Shown here: positions 45,107-50,409 of the stretch, piece by piece
Layout: the number at the start of each line of letters is the position of its first letter
How positions within the stretch are numbered: the stretch's first letter is position 1
Assembly: GCA_019058365.1 (NCBI GenBank)
Contig: JAHPZE010000025.1
Location: forward strand, 1 to 64,000
Direction of reading: 5' to 3'
DNA from: Promethearchaeota archaeon
GTDB taxonomy: Archaea > Asgardarchaeota > Lokiarchaeia > Sigyniarchaeales > SOKP01
DNA length: 64,000 nt
Notes under the pieces: model-generated
What the model was told of the DNA's origin: nothing
Seen by the model: the letters and a program-made list of their open reading frames with translations, nothing else
The model's database searches: none
Translations under genes and position numbers: made by a program

Positions 45107-45835
45107 TTACAAATTTAGTTCTTTTTTTTGAATTTGAATCAATTCTAAAATGCCTTTTTCTCCTAATTCTACAATTTCTCTTAATTTATTCTTAGTAAAA
45201 GTAGCTCTCTCCGCGGTTCCTTGGATTTCCATAATTTCAGATTTCTCATTCATAACTAAATTGAAATCAACATCTACTTTTGAATCTTCACTATAATCTA
45301 AATCTAATAGAATTTGGCTATTTTTTATACCTAAAGATACTGCTGCTAATACAGTATAATCTGGAAATTCATAAATGAGTTGTTGGTTGTAGAGATGATT
45401 AATAGCATCAAATACTGCTATGAACGCTCCCGTAATTGAAGCACATCTCGTACCTCCATCAGCTTGAATAACATCGCAATCGATTTTTATAGTACGTTCA
45501 CCAAGTTTTTCATAATTAAAACCGGCTCGTATACATCTCCCTATTAATCGTTGGATCTCAACTGATCTGCCTCTGTTAGGCTCTCTTTTGTTTCTCACTT
45601 GTGTGGCTCTAGGTAACATCGAATATTCTGCGGTAATCCATCCAGTTCCTGTATCAACTAAAAAACGTGGAACAGATTCTACAACTGAGGCTGTTACAAT
45701 TACTTTCGTGCTTCCCTGAGTTATTAAAACAGAACCTTCAGGATATTTAAGGAAATTTCTCTTTATAGTAATTTTCCTTAATTCATCAAATTTTCTTCCA
45801 TCAAATCTTTTATTTCCAAGCATTTCGTAACTCAA
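45107..45835 (-). CDS. rph: Ribonuclease PH (bacterial type)
   Basis: GWITAEYSMLPRAT, EIQRLIGR, DCDVIQADGGTRCASITG, LDLDYSEDS, EIQGTAE. Confidence 0.93.
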   Translation of the reverse strand: MSYEMLGNKRFDGRKFDELRKITIKRNFLKYPEGSVLITQGSTKVIVTASVVESVPRFLVDTGTGWITAEYSMLPRATQVRNKREPNRGRSVEIQRLIGRCIRAGFNYEKLGERTIKIDCDVIQADGGTRCASITGAFIAVFDAINHLYNQQLIYEFPDYTVLAAVSLGIKNSQILLDLDYSEDSKVDVDFNLVMNEKSEIMEIQGTAERATFTKNKLREIVELGEKGILELIQIQKKELNL

Positions 45836-46017: not shown

Positions 46018-46296
46018 TTATATTTTTTGGATAATTTTACAAGCATTTATAATTTCTTTCCATATAACTTCAATTGTATCATTTTTTAGTAAAACAGATT
46101 TATCTTTCATTCGTTTTATGATTTCTTTTTCCCTATTTGGTTGAGATACATCCATATCAACTAATTTTTTAAGATTTCCGATTTTCTTGGCAACCTCTAC
46201 TCTTGTATTTAAGAGGTTAATCATTTGATTATCAATTTCATCAATTTCTTTCCTATATAATTCTATTTCCTTTTTAACGGCATTAGGTTCTTTCAT
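46018..46296 (-). CDS. aroQ: Chorismate mutase type II (stand-alone AroQ)
   Basis: RKEIDEID..LLNTR..IGNLK..REKEII; follows pheT. Confidence 0.88.
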   Translation of the reverse strand: MKEPNAVKKEIELYRKEIDEIDNQMINLLNTRVEVAKKIGNLKKLVDMDVSQPNREKEIIKRMKDKSVLLKNDTIEVIWKEIINACKIIQKI

Positions 46297-46345: not shown

Positions 46346-48022
46346 TTAAAATATGTACTCTAAATTTAGTTCTAAAGCTGCAACAGGAAATTTTAATTTG
46401 AAATTTAACAAAACTTCTGGGTGTATTTCACCGATCTCTCCAATTTTCTTTCCTTTCAAATAAACACTCCCATATCTACCTTCAAGATAAGTAGGATTTT
46501 TGTCAGGTTTAATTTCATAATCATCATAACACCCTAATGAAGTTATAATAAAATCTAAAGTAGATCTAATCTCTGTGAAATCTGAATGTTCATGATATGT
46601 TGTTGCTGCGACATGAATTTCTCTTCTTGTCCCCGTTTCTTTACTACTATCTAGCAAAATAATATCCCCAACTTCGAAAATTCTTATAGGTTTTTCTTCA
46701 GATCTATTGTTTGAAAGAGTCTCCAGCAATTTCGGTAAGATAGTAGTTCTTGTAGTATTATATTCTTTTGATACAGGGTTTAAAATCTGTACATGACTTG
46801 TTTCTTCAAACTCTTGTTTCATGTAATTATAAAGCTTTTCAGAGTTAGATAAAATAAAGTTCAGGACTTCTAAATATCCCGCTCCAATCATTATAGTCCG
46901 AATTTTATTCGAAAAAGATTGAATCGGATGATATTTTCCGATACATCCTTCTCTAATGGTTGTAGGTAATTTATCATATCCATATCCAATTGCGCATTCT
47001 TCGGTAAAATCAACAACGTGCATTATGTCTCCTCTAAAAGCTGGTACCCAGACATCTAAATATCCTTTCTTTTTTGATTGTTTAGCATCTAGTCTAACCT
47101 TATTAAAACATTTTATCATATCTTTTGAAGATAAACTGATTCCTATATAATCATTAATATAATCAATCCCAACCTCCCACTTCTCAGGATCCAGATTTGG
47201 AGTAAGAATTTCCTTCCCTTTCTCATAATTTACCTTAACACTTTCAATTTTAGCTCCCATATCTGCTAAAGTTGTTGATAAAATATTTAAAGCTAAATTG
47301 ACAGCTTTAAAATCTGTTCCAGTTAAATCTAAAAATAGATTTTTGGTATCATCTGTAACTGTTGTCAATATTCCATTTATAACTGGAGGAAAAGATAAAA
47401 CCTCATTATTATTATCAAAAATTATAGGATACACTTCTTTTCCTTCTAAAATATGAGCATATTCAGTCCCCTTCTCATGTAATAATAAGATTTCTTCTAA
47501 ATTCATAGGATATCCATCACCATGTAATGGAATAAAACTTACAGAATCTGGTTTGACAGCTGTATATCGATAAGGAGGTGTTATTTTATCAAGATCATGA
47601 ACACCTATTGCTACTTTTTTTCTATCTCGTCCAACTGCCCAGTGTAGATGTTCTTGGATGTTCATTAAAGTTGCAACCTCATCTTCATCCAAATCAATAT
47701 TTCTAATTACACCACAGACAATATATGGTCGAACTTGATTAACTATTGAATCAACATTTAATTCAATTTCTCCAGGAGAAATTTCAAAGGAGGGTATTCC
47801 TAACTTAATTTCATAATATCCCTGAAGTGCTCTGGCAATCCCTTCGGGACTAGAAAAGTCAGGTCTATTTGGATTATATTCAACTTTAATTTTTTGCTCT
47901 TCTTCATTTATATCTTCTAAATCTAAACCAATCCATTGCAAATCATATTCTAAATTCTTAATACCTAATTTTTTTCCCACTAACCTCTCTAATCGATCTA
48001 ATTTAAGTTCTAATGTTGGCAA
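46346..48022 (-). CDS. pheT: Phenylalanine--tRNA ligase beta subunit (archaeal)
   Basis: MPT start, PNRPD, AIGVHD, RGDIMH..D..E, GEIHPEVL. Confidence 0.96.
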   Translation of the reverse strand: MPTLELKLDRLERLVGKKLGIKNLEYDLQWIGLDLEDINEEEQKIKVEYNPNRPDFSSPEGIARALQGYYEIKLGIPSFEISPGEIELNVDSIVNQVRPYIVCGVIRNIDLDEDEVATLMNIQEHLHWAVGRDRKKVAIGVHDLDKITPPYRYTAVKPDSVSFIPLHGDGYPMNLEEILLLHEKGTEYAHILEGKEVYPIIFDNNNEVLSFPPVINGILTTVTDDTKNLFLDLTGTDFKAVNLALNILSTTLADMGAKIESVKVNYEKGKEILTPNLDPEKWEVGIDYINDYIGISLSSKDMIKCFNKVRLDAKQSKKKGYLDVWVPAFRGDIMHVVDFTEECAIGYGYDKLPTTIREGCIGKYHPIQSFSNKIRTIMIGAGYLEVLNFILSNSEKLYNYMKQEFEETSHVQILNPVSKEYNTTRTTILPKLLETLSNNRSEEKPIRIFEVGDIILLDSSKETGTRREIHVAATTYHEHSDFTEIRSTLDFIITSLGCYDDYEIKPDKNPTYLEGRYGSVYLKGKKIGEIGEIHPEVLLNFKLKFPVAALELNLEYIF

Positions 48023-48040: not shown

Positions 48041-49576
48041 TTAATATGGTTGATTCCGCAACCATTTTATTGGGTTAATATATAAATCTCTAATATCCTT
48101 CCTATCAAAATACAACATAGCTATTCTCTCAAGTCCTTGACCCCATGCTAAAACACGAGTTGGATCTTTAATTCCCCAAGGATATGTAACCTCAGGTCTA
48201 AAGATTCCTGAGCCTCCAAATTCTAACCATTCACCTAATTTATCAAAGTATACAGAAACTTCCATACTGGGCTCAGTATAAGGAAAAAATCCAGGTCTTG
48301 TTATAATCTTTTTAAATCCTAATTTTCTGTAAAATTCTTTTAGTAATCCAATTAAATCACATAGTGTTAAATTATCATCAATAACTATACCTTCAACTTG
48401 AGTAAACTCCGCTAAATGTGATTTATCTACTTTTTCATTTCTGAATACTCTATCAATGCAGAACACTTTAACTGGTGCTTTTTCCTTATTTCTATAAAAT
48501 TCTGCTAATCTTCTTATTGTAGTTGCTGTAGTATGAGTTCTCAATACTGTTTTTTTTGCTATTTCAACATCCCATTCAGAACCCCAACCAAGTGACCCCG
48601 AATCACCACCATTCTCATGTGTTGCCTTAACTGCTTGTACTCTATCACTTTCTGGCAATTTAGCAACTTTAGGATTATTCAAATAGAAAGTATCTTGCAT
48701 TTCTCTGGCCGGATGATCTTGGGGTTGAAATAAAGCATCAAAATTATAAAATGCACTTTCGATTATCGGACCTCTAATCTCAGTAAATCCCATTGAAATA
48801 AATATTTCTCTTATCTCATTAACTAATCTGATCATAGGATGTAGTTTTCCTGCTTTTAATAAGGGGCCCGGCTTGGTAACATCAAAAGGTTTTAAATCAT
48901 AATTTTTCCAAGTTCCAGAGATCAACATCTCAGAAGTAATTTTACTAATTTGCTCTAATTCTTTAATTTTTGAGATTTCAATTTTTTTACCCTTTTCAGT
49001 TAAACTTATGATTCTTTCAGTTCTACGATTTTTATTAACCAACTTTCTTTTATTTAGTAGATCCAATTGTAATAATTCATTTTTAGATAATGTAGAATGA
49101 TCAATAACAGGATTTTCTTTAAATTTTTTTAGAAATTTTTCAAAATCTGTTTCAGGAAAATTTTCAGCAGTAATAAATATTTTATTTTCTCCTGAAGCTT
49201 TGCTTTGCGCAATCCATCTTTTTTTTTTTAAATTTGAAATACCTATATAAAAAATATTTCTATCTAAATGAGATTTTCTTAAGAATTCATCTAAACTTAA
49301 TTCTTTAATATTGTTTTCTAATAATATATTTATTAATTGACGTTCCGGGAGGCCATCTTCTAAGTAATCAATTCCTTCTTTATTTAAAGATATTTGATTA
49401 ACTTCTTCTTCCCTAAAATGCCCTAAATCATTCTCAATTAAATCATTAATTGCAGACATTAGTACAATATAATCTATTTTCAATTCTTTTGCCAGATCAG
49501 TAGCAAGTACCTCAGAACTCTTTTTCTTTAATACCTTTAAAATATCAATTACTTGCTTTTTAAGTCTAATTGTCAT
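48041..49576 (-). CDS. pheS: Phenylalanine--tRNA ligase alpha subunit (archaeal)
   Basis: QDHPAREMQDTF, LRTHTT, FRNE, FPYTEPS, GIFRPE, GLERIAM. Confidence 0.97.
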   Translation of the reverse strand: MTIRLKKQVIDILKVLKKKSSEVLATDLAKELKIDYIVLMSAINDLIENDLGHFREEEVNQISLNKEGIDYLEDGLPERQLINILLENNIKELSLDEFLRKSHLDRNIFYIGISNLKKKRWIAQSKASGENKIFITAENFPETDFEKFLKKFKENPVIDHSTLSKNELLQLDLLNKRKLVNKNRRTERIISLTEKGKKIEISKIKELEQISKITSEMLISGTWKNYDLKPFDVTKPGPLLKAGKLHPMIRLVNEIREIFISMGFTEIRGPIIESAFYNFDALFQPQDHPAREMQDTFYLNNPKVAKLPESDRVQAVKATHENGGDSGSLGWGSEWDVEIAKKTVLRTHTTATTIRRLAEFYRNKEKAPVKVFCIDRVFRNEKVDKSHLAEFTQVEGIVIDDNLTLCDLIGLLKEFYRKLGFKKIITRPGFFPYTEPSMEVSVYFDKLGEWLEFGGSGIFRPEVTYPWGIKDPTRVLAWGQGLERIAMLYFDRKDIRDLYINPIKWLRNQPY

Positions 49577-49724
49577 ATGCTTTAGCTAAATTTTTTTACT
49601 TTTTTATTATATCTTTTAAAATCTCTAATTTATTTAAATCTTTCGTGGATTAAATCATTCTGAATAGCCCAATCTCGAATTAGAAAGAATCTTTTTTATA
49701 TTAAATGTAAAAATTCTGGATCTT

Positions 49725-49794
49725 AATAAAAGTAAAACCAAAAATCTCCGCAGCCAAGAGCATAATTTTAGTTTAGTAATTTTATTCCCTTGGC
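49725..49794 (-). terminator. Hairpin followed by U-rich tract in the pheS leader (putative attenuator/terminator)
   Basis: Minus-strand GCCAAGGGAAUAA (49794-49782) pairs with UUAUGCUCUUGGC (49765-49753) at 12 of 13 positions including one G-U; followed by UUUUUGGUUUUACUUUUAUU. Confidence 0.55.
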
Positions 49795-49877
49795 AGAATA
49801 AAGAATTTAAAGAAAAATGAATCTTGATAGAAAAATCTGTTTAGTTTAATACTGATATTTATTAAATTCGTAATCAT
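49782..49877 (-). CDS. Putative Phe-rich leader peptide (PheM-like), MITNLINISIKLNRFFYQDSFFFKFFILPRE
   Basis: 31-codon ATG..TAA ORF with 7 Phe in 12 codons, about 200 nt upstream of pheS; stop codon lies inside the hairpin 5' arm; TTATATAA 31 nt upstream. Confidence 0.55.
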   Translation of the reverse strand: MITNLINISIKLNRFFYQDSFFFKFFILPRE

Positions 49878-49908
49878 TATCTCAAGAATTCATTTTTACT
49901 ATAATTTA

Positions 49909-49916
49909 TTATATAA
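49909..49916 (-). promoter_or_regulatory. Candidate TATA box for the leader/pheST transcript
   Basis: TTATATAA 31 nt above the leader ATG; weak evidence because the background is AT-rich. Confidence 0.3.
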
Positions 49917-49923
49917 TCATGTC

Positions 49924-50409
49924 CTAAAAAATTTTCCTATGATGCTTTTCTCGAATAGAAGTAGAACTAATTTTATTGTTATTTTTATCTTTGAGAACAG
50001 GAATTACAATTAAAACAAGAGGTTCTAATCCTTTTTTCTCTCTATTTTCATTTAATCTTAAAGCATTTTCATACGTTTCCTGGCTAACTATTAAGCCTTC
50101 ATATTCTGGATCTTGAGCATATTTATCCATATCTGCCCAATTTTTAATTTCAACAATATTAATTCGCTCTAAATCAGCAAAAGAATTAATATATGTCATT
50201 AAATTCTCTTTTCTGGTTTTGTAATCTTCCAATTTTGAGGAATATTGTTTATTTTTTAATAAATCTTGAGATGTCAGCCCAATCTCTATAAATTCAGAAA
50301 TGGATAAAGCAGTTTTTAATAAAAATTTATGTCCCTCGTGGAGATGATCGAAAGTTCCCCCTAATCCAACTTTCTTTAGAATCTGAAAAACCCCCAGCCA
50401 AAAAAACAA
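49924..50409 (-). CDS. coaD: Archaeal phosphopantetheine adenylyltransferase
   Basis: GGTFDHLHEGH, VSQET, N..R, ISSTSIR; real start possibly ATT 50382. Confidence 0.92.
   Translation of the reverse strand: MFFWLGVFQILKKVGLGGTFDHLHEGHKFLLKTALSISEFIEIGLTSQDLLKNKQYSSKLEDYKTRKENLMTYINSFADLERINIVEIKNWADMDKYAQDPEYEGLIVSQETYENALRLNENREKKGLEPLVLIVIPVLKDKNNNKISSTSIREKHHRKIF

What the first reader, a model, noticed from the sequence alone, without database searches (positions are those of the whole stretch)
49725..49916. Candidate archaeal ribosome-mediated attenuator: Phe-rich leader peptide, hairpin and U-tract upstream of pheS-pheT-chorismate mutase
Seen: the ~350-bp gap above pheS holds an ORF too short for the track (49877->49782, minus), MITNLINISIKLNR-FF-YQDS-FFF-K-FF-ILPRE*. 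It has 7 Phe in 12 codons, mixing TTT and TTC rather than a plain T run. Its last codons and stop form the 5' arm of a comparatively GC-rich hairpin (GCCAAGGGAAUAA/UUAUGCUCUUGGC; the G-U pair favours this strand). The stem can extend by UCUUU (last two Phe codons) pairing with GGAGA, and U5-GG-U4-AC-U4 follows directly. A TATA-like box lies 31 nt above the ATG. The downstream genes are PheRS and chorismate mutase. Known: E. coli pheST (pheM) and pheA (pheL) are controlled by Phe-codon leader peptides, and archaeal termination uses U-tracts. To my knowledge leader-peptide attenuation is not established in archaea. Inference: a ribosome stalled on Phe codons would melt the stem and alter termination, giving tRNA-Phe-charging control. 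Caveats: Phe codons are frequent by chance in AT-rich DNA, and a BRE/TATA-like CGAAAGATTTAAATA (49645-49631) could be a second promoter below the leader.
Basis: partly seen in the sequence, partly recalled or inferred. Interest (0 to 1): 0.88.

Follow-up and report, generated by a model that had tools for sequence, protein, structure and literature searches.

The report
Phenylalanine-rich leader gene before archaeal pheS
A tiny, conserved, phenylalanine-rich reading frame flanked by two RNA stems opens the phenylalanyl-tRNA synthetase operon of this Asgard archaeon, and three other amino-acid genes carry matching leaders; together they look like the ribosome-read amino-acid gauges known from bacteria, of which I found no published report in archaea, though how the switch works is unproven.

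Summary
Real and conserved. The uORF (49877-49782, minus) lies above pheS in all 27 same-genus loci with readable upstream DNA; its hairpin motif occurs in 87 of 151 genomes searched, all in one Promethearchaeia family (9 genera). Its frame stays open through a 40%-identical stretch (1 stop in 792 codons against 46-74 per 552 in other frames), a start codon recurs, and all three stop codons are used. Cluster TTN codons are 97% Phe against 34% upstream. The cognate match recurs in this genome: Leu before leuS (30/30 relatives), Ile before ileS (28/29), Trp before trpB2 (30/30, and 18/20 in other families, including cultured MK-D1). Corrections: the promoter-like box is at 49936-49924; the U5 tract and the long stem extension are not conserved; no antiterminator helix was found; the second promoter-like box near pheS is conserved. 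So translation-based Phe sensing is likely (~0.8); control by premature termination is inferred (~0.55). No RNA data. This scan noted the same element, and the leuS, ileS and trp leaders, before on other DNA.

The parts
49924..49936 (-). P1, BRE/TATA-like box (A-rich then T6-A-G); predicted start of the leader RNA near 49899-49894 (inferred)
   Evidence: Fixed about 130 nt above the main stem in most of 43 leaders while the upstream gene's stop varies from -139 to -580 or is absent; kept in other genera; same type of box about 30 nt above the ileS leader
49882..49893 (-).
   Evidence: 82% of cells paired, 6 of 11 pairs with double changes, e.g. U-A 21, G-C 7 at 49887/49822; mean pairing probability about 0.6 for the core
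49782..49877 (-). Leader uORF, 31 codons here, usually about 29
   Evidence: 0 stops in 552 codons in frame against 46-74 in the five other frames at 40% nucleotide identity; 1 in 240 against 25-31 in 20 more leaders mostly from other genera; TAA, TAG and TGA all used as stop
49817..49827 (-). 3' arm of stem H1 (Gln-Asp-Ser codons)
49800..49835 (-). Phe codons; conserved core FFFxFF at 49817-49800, last Phe (49802-49800) invariant
   Evidence: Phe in 37, 30, 35, 34 and 46 of 46 at the five positions; TTN codons 173 of 178 Phe in the cluster against 26 of 77 upstream
49782..49797 (-). 5' arm of stem H2, holding the last codons and the stop
   Evidence: Core pairs 45 of 45; G-C 29, G-U 10, A-U 5 at 49788/49759
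49747..49765 (-). 3' arm of stem H2 with a 3-nt bulge (49752-49750)
   Evidence: 90% and 96% of cells paired for the main helix and its 3-pair extension
49728..49744 (-). U-rich tract, candidate termination zone; only loosely conserved
   Evidence: U fraction 0.57-0.62 at 10-20 nt after the stem; longest run 5 or more in 17 of 43; two or more U4 tracts within 60 nt in 28 of 46
49667..49685 (-). Conserved motif of unknown role at a fixed distance above P2 (factor-binding site or weak hairpin)
   Evidence: Columns at 90% or more; no conserved helix; no close second copy in the genome; decays in other genera
49631..49647 (-). P2, BRE/TATA-like box of pheS; predicted start near 49607 (inferred)
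   Evidence: Near-invariant, varying only among TATA-compatible forms; kept in other genera even where the spacer is deleted (L431)
48041..49576 (-). pheS
46346..48022 (-). pheT, archaeal type
   Evidence: TIGR00471 above cut-off
46018..46296 (-). AroQ-type chorismate mutase domain protein, 92 aa
   Evidence: TIGR01807 E 9e-16, below cut-off; follows pheT in most relatives checked

Best explanation
A leader-peptide gauge of charged tRNA-Phe that sets read-through into pheS-pheT-chorismate mutase. Shown by comparison: a selected open frame with a recurring start and stop, selected Phe codons, two conserved stems, two promoter-like boxes, and leaders with the matching amino acid before leuS, ileS and trpB2. 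Inferred: RNA starts at P1; a ribosome loads, opening H1. With Phe plentiful it reaches the stop and leaves; H2 and H1 re-form, H1 hinders reloading, and the naked U-rich RNA (the tract after H2, possibly the Phe codons themselves) lets FttA/aCPSF1 or U-tract termination end the transcript. With Phe-tRNA scarce the ribosome waits on the Phe codons, covers them and, at the last one, the 5' arm of H2; termination drops and P1 read-through adds mRNA on top of a basal supply from P2. The ribosome itself acts as antiterminator; no alternative hairpin is needed.
For: Frame, start and stop conservation. Phe rather than Leu among TTN codons. Cross-specificity in the last 12 codons: pheS F 4.0, L 1.4, W 0; leuS F 0.1, L 6.4, W 0; trpB2 W 4.0; ileS I 6.8. 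The Trp leader had the strongest Trp cluster and ranked second overall in a blind scan of 5753 intergenic ORFs. Pair counts 87% against 34-53% for slid controls. With a ribosome-sized mask, only the invariant last Phe codon or the stop opens the H2 core; a 27-nt archaeal footprint fits that mask (PMC7261190). FttA is encoded; it binds U-rich RNA, two U4 tracts being minimal (PMC8716108, PMC11616081).
Against: No conserved U run or intrinsic terminator; no conserved antiterminator; P2 could supply all pheS mRNA; ribosomes at the first three Phe codons leave H2 intact in the model, and a ribosome at the stop opens it too, so the switch would rest on timing; Phe count falls to 2 in some relatives; H2 core pairs are mostly invariant, and pairs with double changes do not exceed shuffles (233 of 500); the mask result depends on the footprint assumed.
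Confidence: 0.55

Rival explanations
1. Same Phe sensing, other wiring: P1 transcription running over P2 represses it, and a stalled ribosome promotes early termination of the leader RNA, freeing P2 (transcription interference).
For: P2 is as conserved as the leader and sits about 150 nt below it; uncoupling from a stalled ribosome is the proposed trigger for FttA (PMC11616081); no antiterminator is needed or found.
Against: I saw no comparable conserved BRE-TATA below the leuS leader (by eye); after the stop the RNA is untranslated in either state, so H2 would have to protect it.
Confidence: 0.13
2. Same Phe sensing, but the output is mRNA processing, stability or translation of pheS rather than termination.
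For: The termination signal is poorly conserved; aCPSF1 is a ribonuclease; the ileS leader pairs its own initiation region with downstream RNA.
Against: No conserved pairing reaches the pheS start, which lies about 175 nt below H2 in variable sequence.
Confidence: 0.14
3. An arrest peptide or small functional peptide: the peptide sequence, not decoding delay, matters.
For: The C-terminal eight to twelve residues are conserved.
Against: The Pro codon never varies synonymously and Leu/Pro, Ile/Asn/Thr/Ser exchanges track base pairing; the four leaders share no peptide motif, only the cognate residue.
Confidence: 0.08
4. An independent small RNA or mini-gene between two promoters that does not control pheS.
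For: Own promoter-like box and a second one before pheS.
Against: Directly above pheS wherever the downstream gene could be read; residue matches the downstream gene in four of four cases; not RNase P or SRP RNA, which lie elsewhere; no Rfam match.
Confidence: 0.07
5. Chance ORF in U-rich, AT-rich intergenic DNA.
For: Similar Phe clusters occur in 6-9 of 5753 intergenic ORFs.
Against: 1 in-frame stop in 792 codons across 66 leaders where other frames show about 10%; 87 genomes with the motif, none with the reversed control.
Confidence: 0.02

Closest known systems
E. coli pheM-pheST and pheL-pheA leader-peptide attenuators (Rfam RF01859 Phe_leader); details from my own knowledge
   Same: Short uORF with clustered Phe codons above PheRS and chorismate mutase genes; stems overlapping the end of the uORF.
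   Different: No sequence or structure match; no conserved antiterminator helix; no hairpin plus U7-8 terminator; stop codon lies inside the main stem; archaeal TATA promoters and a second promoter-like box; longer uORF (about 29 codons).
Rho-dependent uORF attenuators of bacteria (tnaC, mgtL, mycobacterial uORFs); own knowledge and PMC13675443
   Same: Ribosome position on a uORF would decide whether a termination factor reaches naked RNA.
   Different: The factor would be FttA/aCPSF1, a U-preferring ribonuclease; the signal is a cognate codon run; factor involvement is untested.
Polycysteine leaderless short ORFs of mycobacteria (bioRxiv 10.1101/834739, title and abstract start only)
   Same: Cognate-codon short ORFs at the 5' end of operon transcripts, recurring before related genes.
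   Different: Other domain of life, other residues; here a short 5' stem precedes the start.
Archaeal FttA/aCPSF1 U-tract termination (PMC8716108, PMC11616081)
   Same: U-rich tracts without need of a hairpin; FttA is in this genome.
   Different: Described at gene ends, not as an amino-acid-conditional switch in a leader; 'attenuation' does not occur in PMC11616081.
Met-Trp minigene before trpY in Methanothermobacter (from memory, not found in the library)
   Same: An archaeal upstream mini-ORF with a cognate codon.
   Different: Two codons, tied to a DNA-binding repressor; no stems of this kind.

Membership tests
Classical leader-peptide transcription attenuator | Short upstream ORF under selection to be translated | tested here: met
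   Frame, start and stop conservation; translation itself not measured
Classical leader-peptide transcription attenuator | Cluster of codons for the amino acid served by the downstream genes | tested here: met
Classical leader-peptide transcription attenuator | Conserved RNA stems overlapping the uORF | tested here: met
   H1 and H2; H2 core mostly invariant, so covariation support is modest
Classical leader-peptide transcription attenuator | Mutually exclusive antiterminator helix | tested here: not met
   No alternative helix above 5 bp conserved; none gains weight under a ribosome mask
Classical leader-peptide transcription attenuator | Intrinsic terminator: hairpin followed at once by a U7-8 run | tested here: not met
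   archaeal termination does not require this form
Classical leader-peptide transcription attenuator | Leader and genes on one transcript; termination responds to starvation | not testable with these tools
   No RNA run listed; a second promoter-like box lies between
Rfam RF01859 Phe_leader | Covariance-model match above gathering score | tested here: not met
   0 of 21 genomes above cut-off, none in this genome; no hit on the region
Factor-dependent (FttA) uORF attenuator | FttA encoded, and two U4 tracts in untranslated leader RNA | tested here: inconclusive
   FttA present; two U4 tracts after H2 in 28 of 46, in the Phe cluster in 12 of 46
T-box riboswitch | Rfam T-box match; no translated uORF needed | tested here: not met
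   No Rfam match to E 10; the frame test points to translation

The most novel reading that the evidence does not exclude
Promethearchaeia run a set of ribosome-read amino-acid gauges (Phe, Leu, Ile, Trp) in which a stalled ribosome gates FttA/aCPSF1, the homolog of eukaryotic CPSF73 and INTS11, on the nascent leader: the first leader-peptide attenuation in archaea, built without an antiterminator hairpin and apparently independent of the bacterial elements.
Probability: 0.4. Interest if true: 0.92.

Novelty: new variant of a known kind. Interest (0 to 1): 0.8.

Why it matters
Ten literature searches found no report of leader-peptide attenuation in archaea (the library lacks most subscription papers). 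If these leaders work as inferred, they show that transcription-translation coupling is used for regulation in the archaeal lineage closest to eukaryotes, and give natural substrates for testing whether a ribosome excludes FttA, which PMC11616081 states as an open hypothesis. The Trp version is present in cultured Promethearchaeum syntrophicum MK-D1, so it can be examined now; the Phe version was found only in one family.

Tried and rejected
RNase P or SRP RNA: both lie elsewhere in the genome. Rfam families incl. Phe_leader and T-box: no match. A plus-strand RNA: G-U pairs and the open frame favour the minus strand. A tRNA-like or T-loop hairpin at 49685-49667: pairing not conserved. P1 as mere terminator of the upstream gene: its distance follows the leader, not that gene's stop. 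Genome-wide positional enrichment of TATA-like words was too weak in this AT-rich genome to confirm P1 or P2. No RNA holder listed for this DNA, so no reads were laid. The metagenome pattern scan was too loose; only four hits were real leaders. The peptide is not in the protein collection by exact look-up. No cognate leader was seen by eye before the other synthetases found (Val, second Leu, Met, Cys, Ser, Pro, Thr, Gly, His, Tyr, Trp, Asp, Asn as judged from sequence); Ala, Arg, Glu and Lys synthetases were not examined. No Phe leader above pheS in 20 genomes of other families. The PheS tree shows double changes on few branches (two or three per pair), so covariation counts overstate independent events. 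Three reviews or papers wanted for prior art were not held.

Full report
Observation. The genome is a Promethearchaeota (Lokiarchaeia) one: the nearest named PheS proteins, 74-88% identical, come from that group. Taken alone the feature is weak: folding z -1.2, and 6-9 of 5753 intergenic short ORFs have an equal Phe cluster, although only 3 of 2000 shuffles of this gap do.

Conservation of the frame. Of 28 same-genus pheS loci, all 27 with readable upstream DNA carry the element (one cut short by a contig end; one masked). In 46 leaders the 12 variable codons upstream of the core are 40% identical in DNA, yet hold 0 stops in 552 codons in the uORF frame against 46-74 in each other frame; ATG stands at the same codon in 32 of 46 and most others have a start within a few codons. 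Twenty further leaders, from other genera of the family, gave 1 stop in 240 against 25 and 31. TAA, TAG and TGA all serve as stop. These genomes are kin, so counts are not independent, but the divergence makes an accidental open frame untenable. A pattern for the main hairpin occurs in 87 of 151 genomes, in 9 genera of one family, one copy each but for one duplicate, in 0 of 19 genomes of other families and in none of the reversed controls.

Selection on Phe. The core is FFFxFF; the last Phe is invariant (my anchor pattern included it, but the pheS-anchored loci all have it). TTN codons in the cluster are Phe in 173 of 178 cases against 26 of 77 in the variable part, and 73 of 78 in the other genera. 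A pyrimidine-tract constraint could mimic this, so the stronger test was other genes. The archaeal-type leuS has a leader ending in a Leu run in 30 of 30 relatives. Each leader is rich only in its own residue, and Leu, Ile and Trp codons are not pyrimidine runs.

RNA structure. H2 (49797-49782 with 49765-49747) is paired in 90-96% of cells; Leu/Pro codon changes at its base keep pairing to two G. H1 (49893-49882 with 49827-49817) pairs the RNA just above the start codon with the codons before the Phe run, 82% paired. Overall 87% against 34-53% for slid controls; cells with double changes exceed all shuffles, pairs with double changes do not, and the tree shows few independent events. No alternative helix over 5 bp is conserved. 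The U-tract is only a tendency.

Promoters. A second box at 49647-49631 is near-invariant. Both are inferred from sequence only.

Mechanism. With a mask of ribosome size (27-nt archaeal footprint, PMC7261190), only a ribosome at the last Phe codon or at the stop opens the H2 core. FttA is encoded and prefers U-rich RNA. I therefore favour conditional early termination in which the waiting ribosome itself shields U-rich RNA and blocks H2, adding P1 read-through to basal P2 transcription (0.55). Interference with P2 (0.13) and post-transcriptional output (0.14) share the sensing step, so Phe sensing by translation stands at about 0.8. All steps after sequence conservation are inference; no RNA data were available. 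The genome has chorismate synthase but no prephenate dehydratase, TrpE, LeuA or HisG match, so the controlled output is probably PheRS, and the role of the chorismate mutase is unclear.

Relation to known systems. It works like bacterial pheM-pheST and pheL, but fails two defining tests of the classical family (antiterminator, intrinsic terminator) and has no Rfam match, so I file it as a new variant, not a member. I found no published archaeal case (ten searches, limited library). This scan's earlier notes report the same pheS element in other genomes and the leuS, ileS and trp leaders; they are unchecked AI notes, not independent support, and I found the leuS and trpB2 leaders before reading those notes.

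Verdict. Real, conserved, part of a recurring set; sensing likely, output unproven. Interest 0.8.

Noticed in passing
G000:C17, about 243-159 nt above leuS (L272, L289; relatives L290-L318): Leu-run leader of about 28 codons before archaeal-type leuS, with an internal stem, a hairpin over the stop and a pyrimidine loop that can pair downstream instead. The genome's second LeuRS-like gene (C35) shows no such leader.
   Followed up: yes
G000:C26:50643-50693 (L319, L320; other families L350-L369): Trp leader before trpB2, conserved across the class and beyond; present in MK-D1 (L360), the best experimental handle. A conserved 10-bp palindrome lies further down the leader in the genus.
   Followed up: yes
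G000:C37, above ileS (L395; relatives L396-L423): Ile-run leader in 28 of 29 relatives; its initiation region is complementary to a conserved 9-mer after the stop; promoter box of the P1 type.
   Followed up: partly
window 49667-49685: Conserved 19-nt motif at a fixed distance above P2, no conserved pairing and no second copy; possibly a transcription-factor site.
   Followed up: partly
window 49882-49893: The 5' arm of H1 begins with an AUG that gives a 3-codon mini-ORF here and runs in frame with the uORF in several relatives; a possible leaderless start.
   Followed up: no
window 46018-46296: Chorismate mutase domain gene follows pheT, but no prephenate dehydratase was found in this genome; its pathway role is unexplained.
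   Followed up: partly
window 45107-45835: Bacterial-type RNase PH (TIGR01966 above cut-off) in an archaeon, next in line after the chorismate mutase.
   Followed up: no
G000:C35, just above valS (L271): A tRNA-like gene with an apparent intron lies about 35 nt above valS; ARAGORN without intron search did not list it.
   Followed up: no
window 49924-50409: The upstream phosphopantetheine adenylyltransferase ORF ends inside the P1 box here, a few codons later than in most relatives.
   Followed up: no
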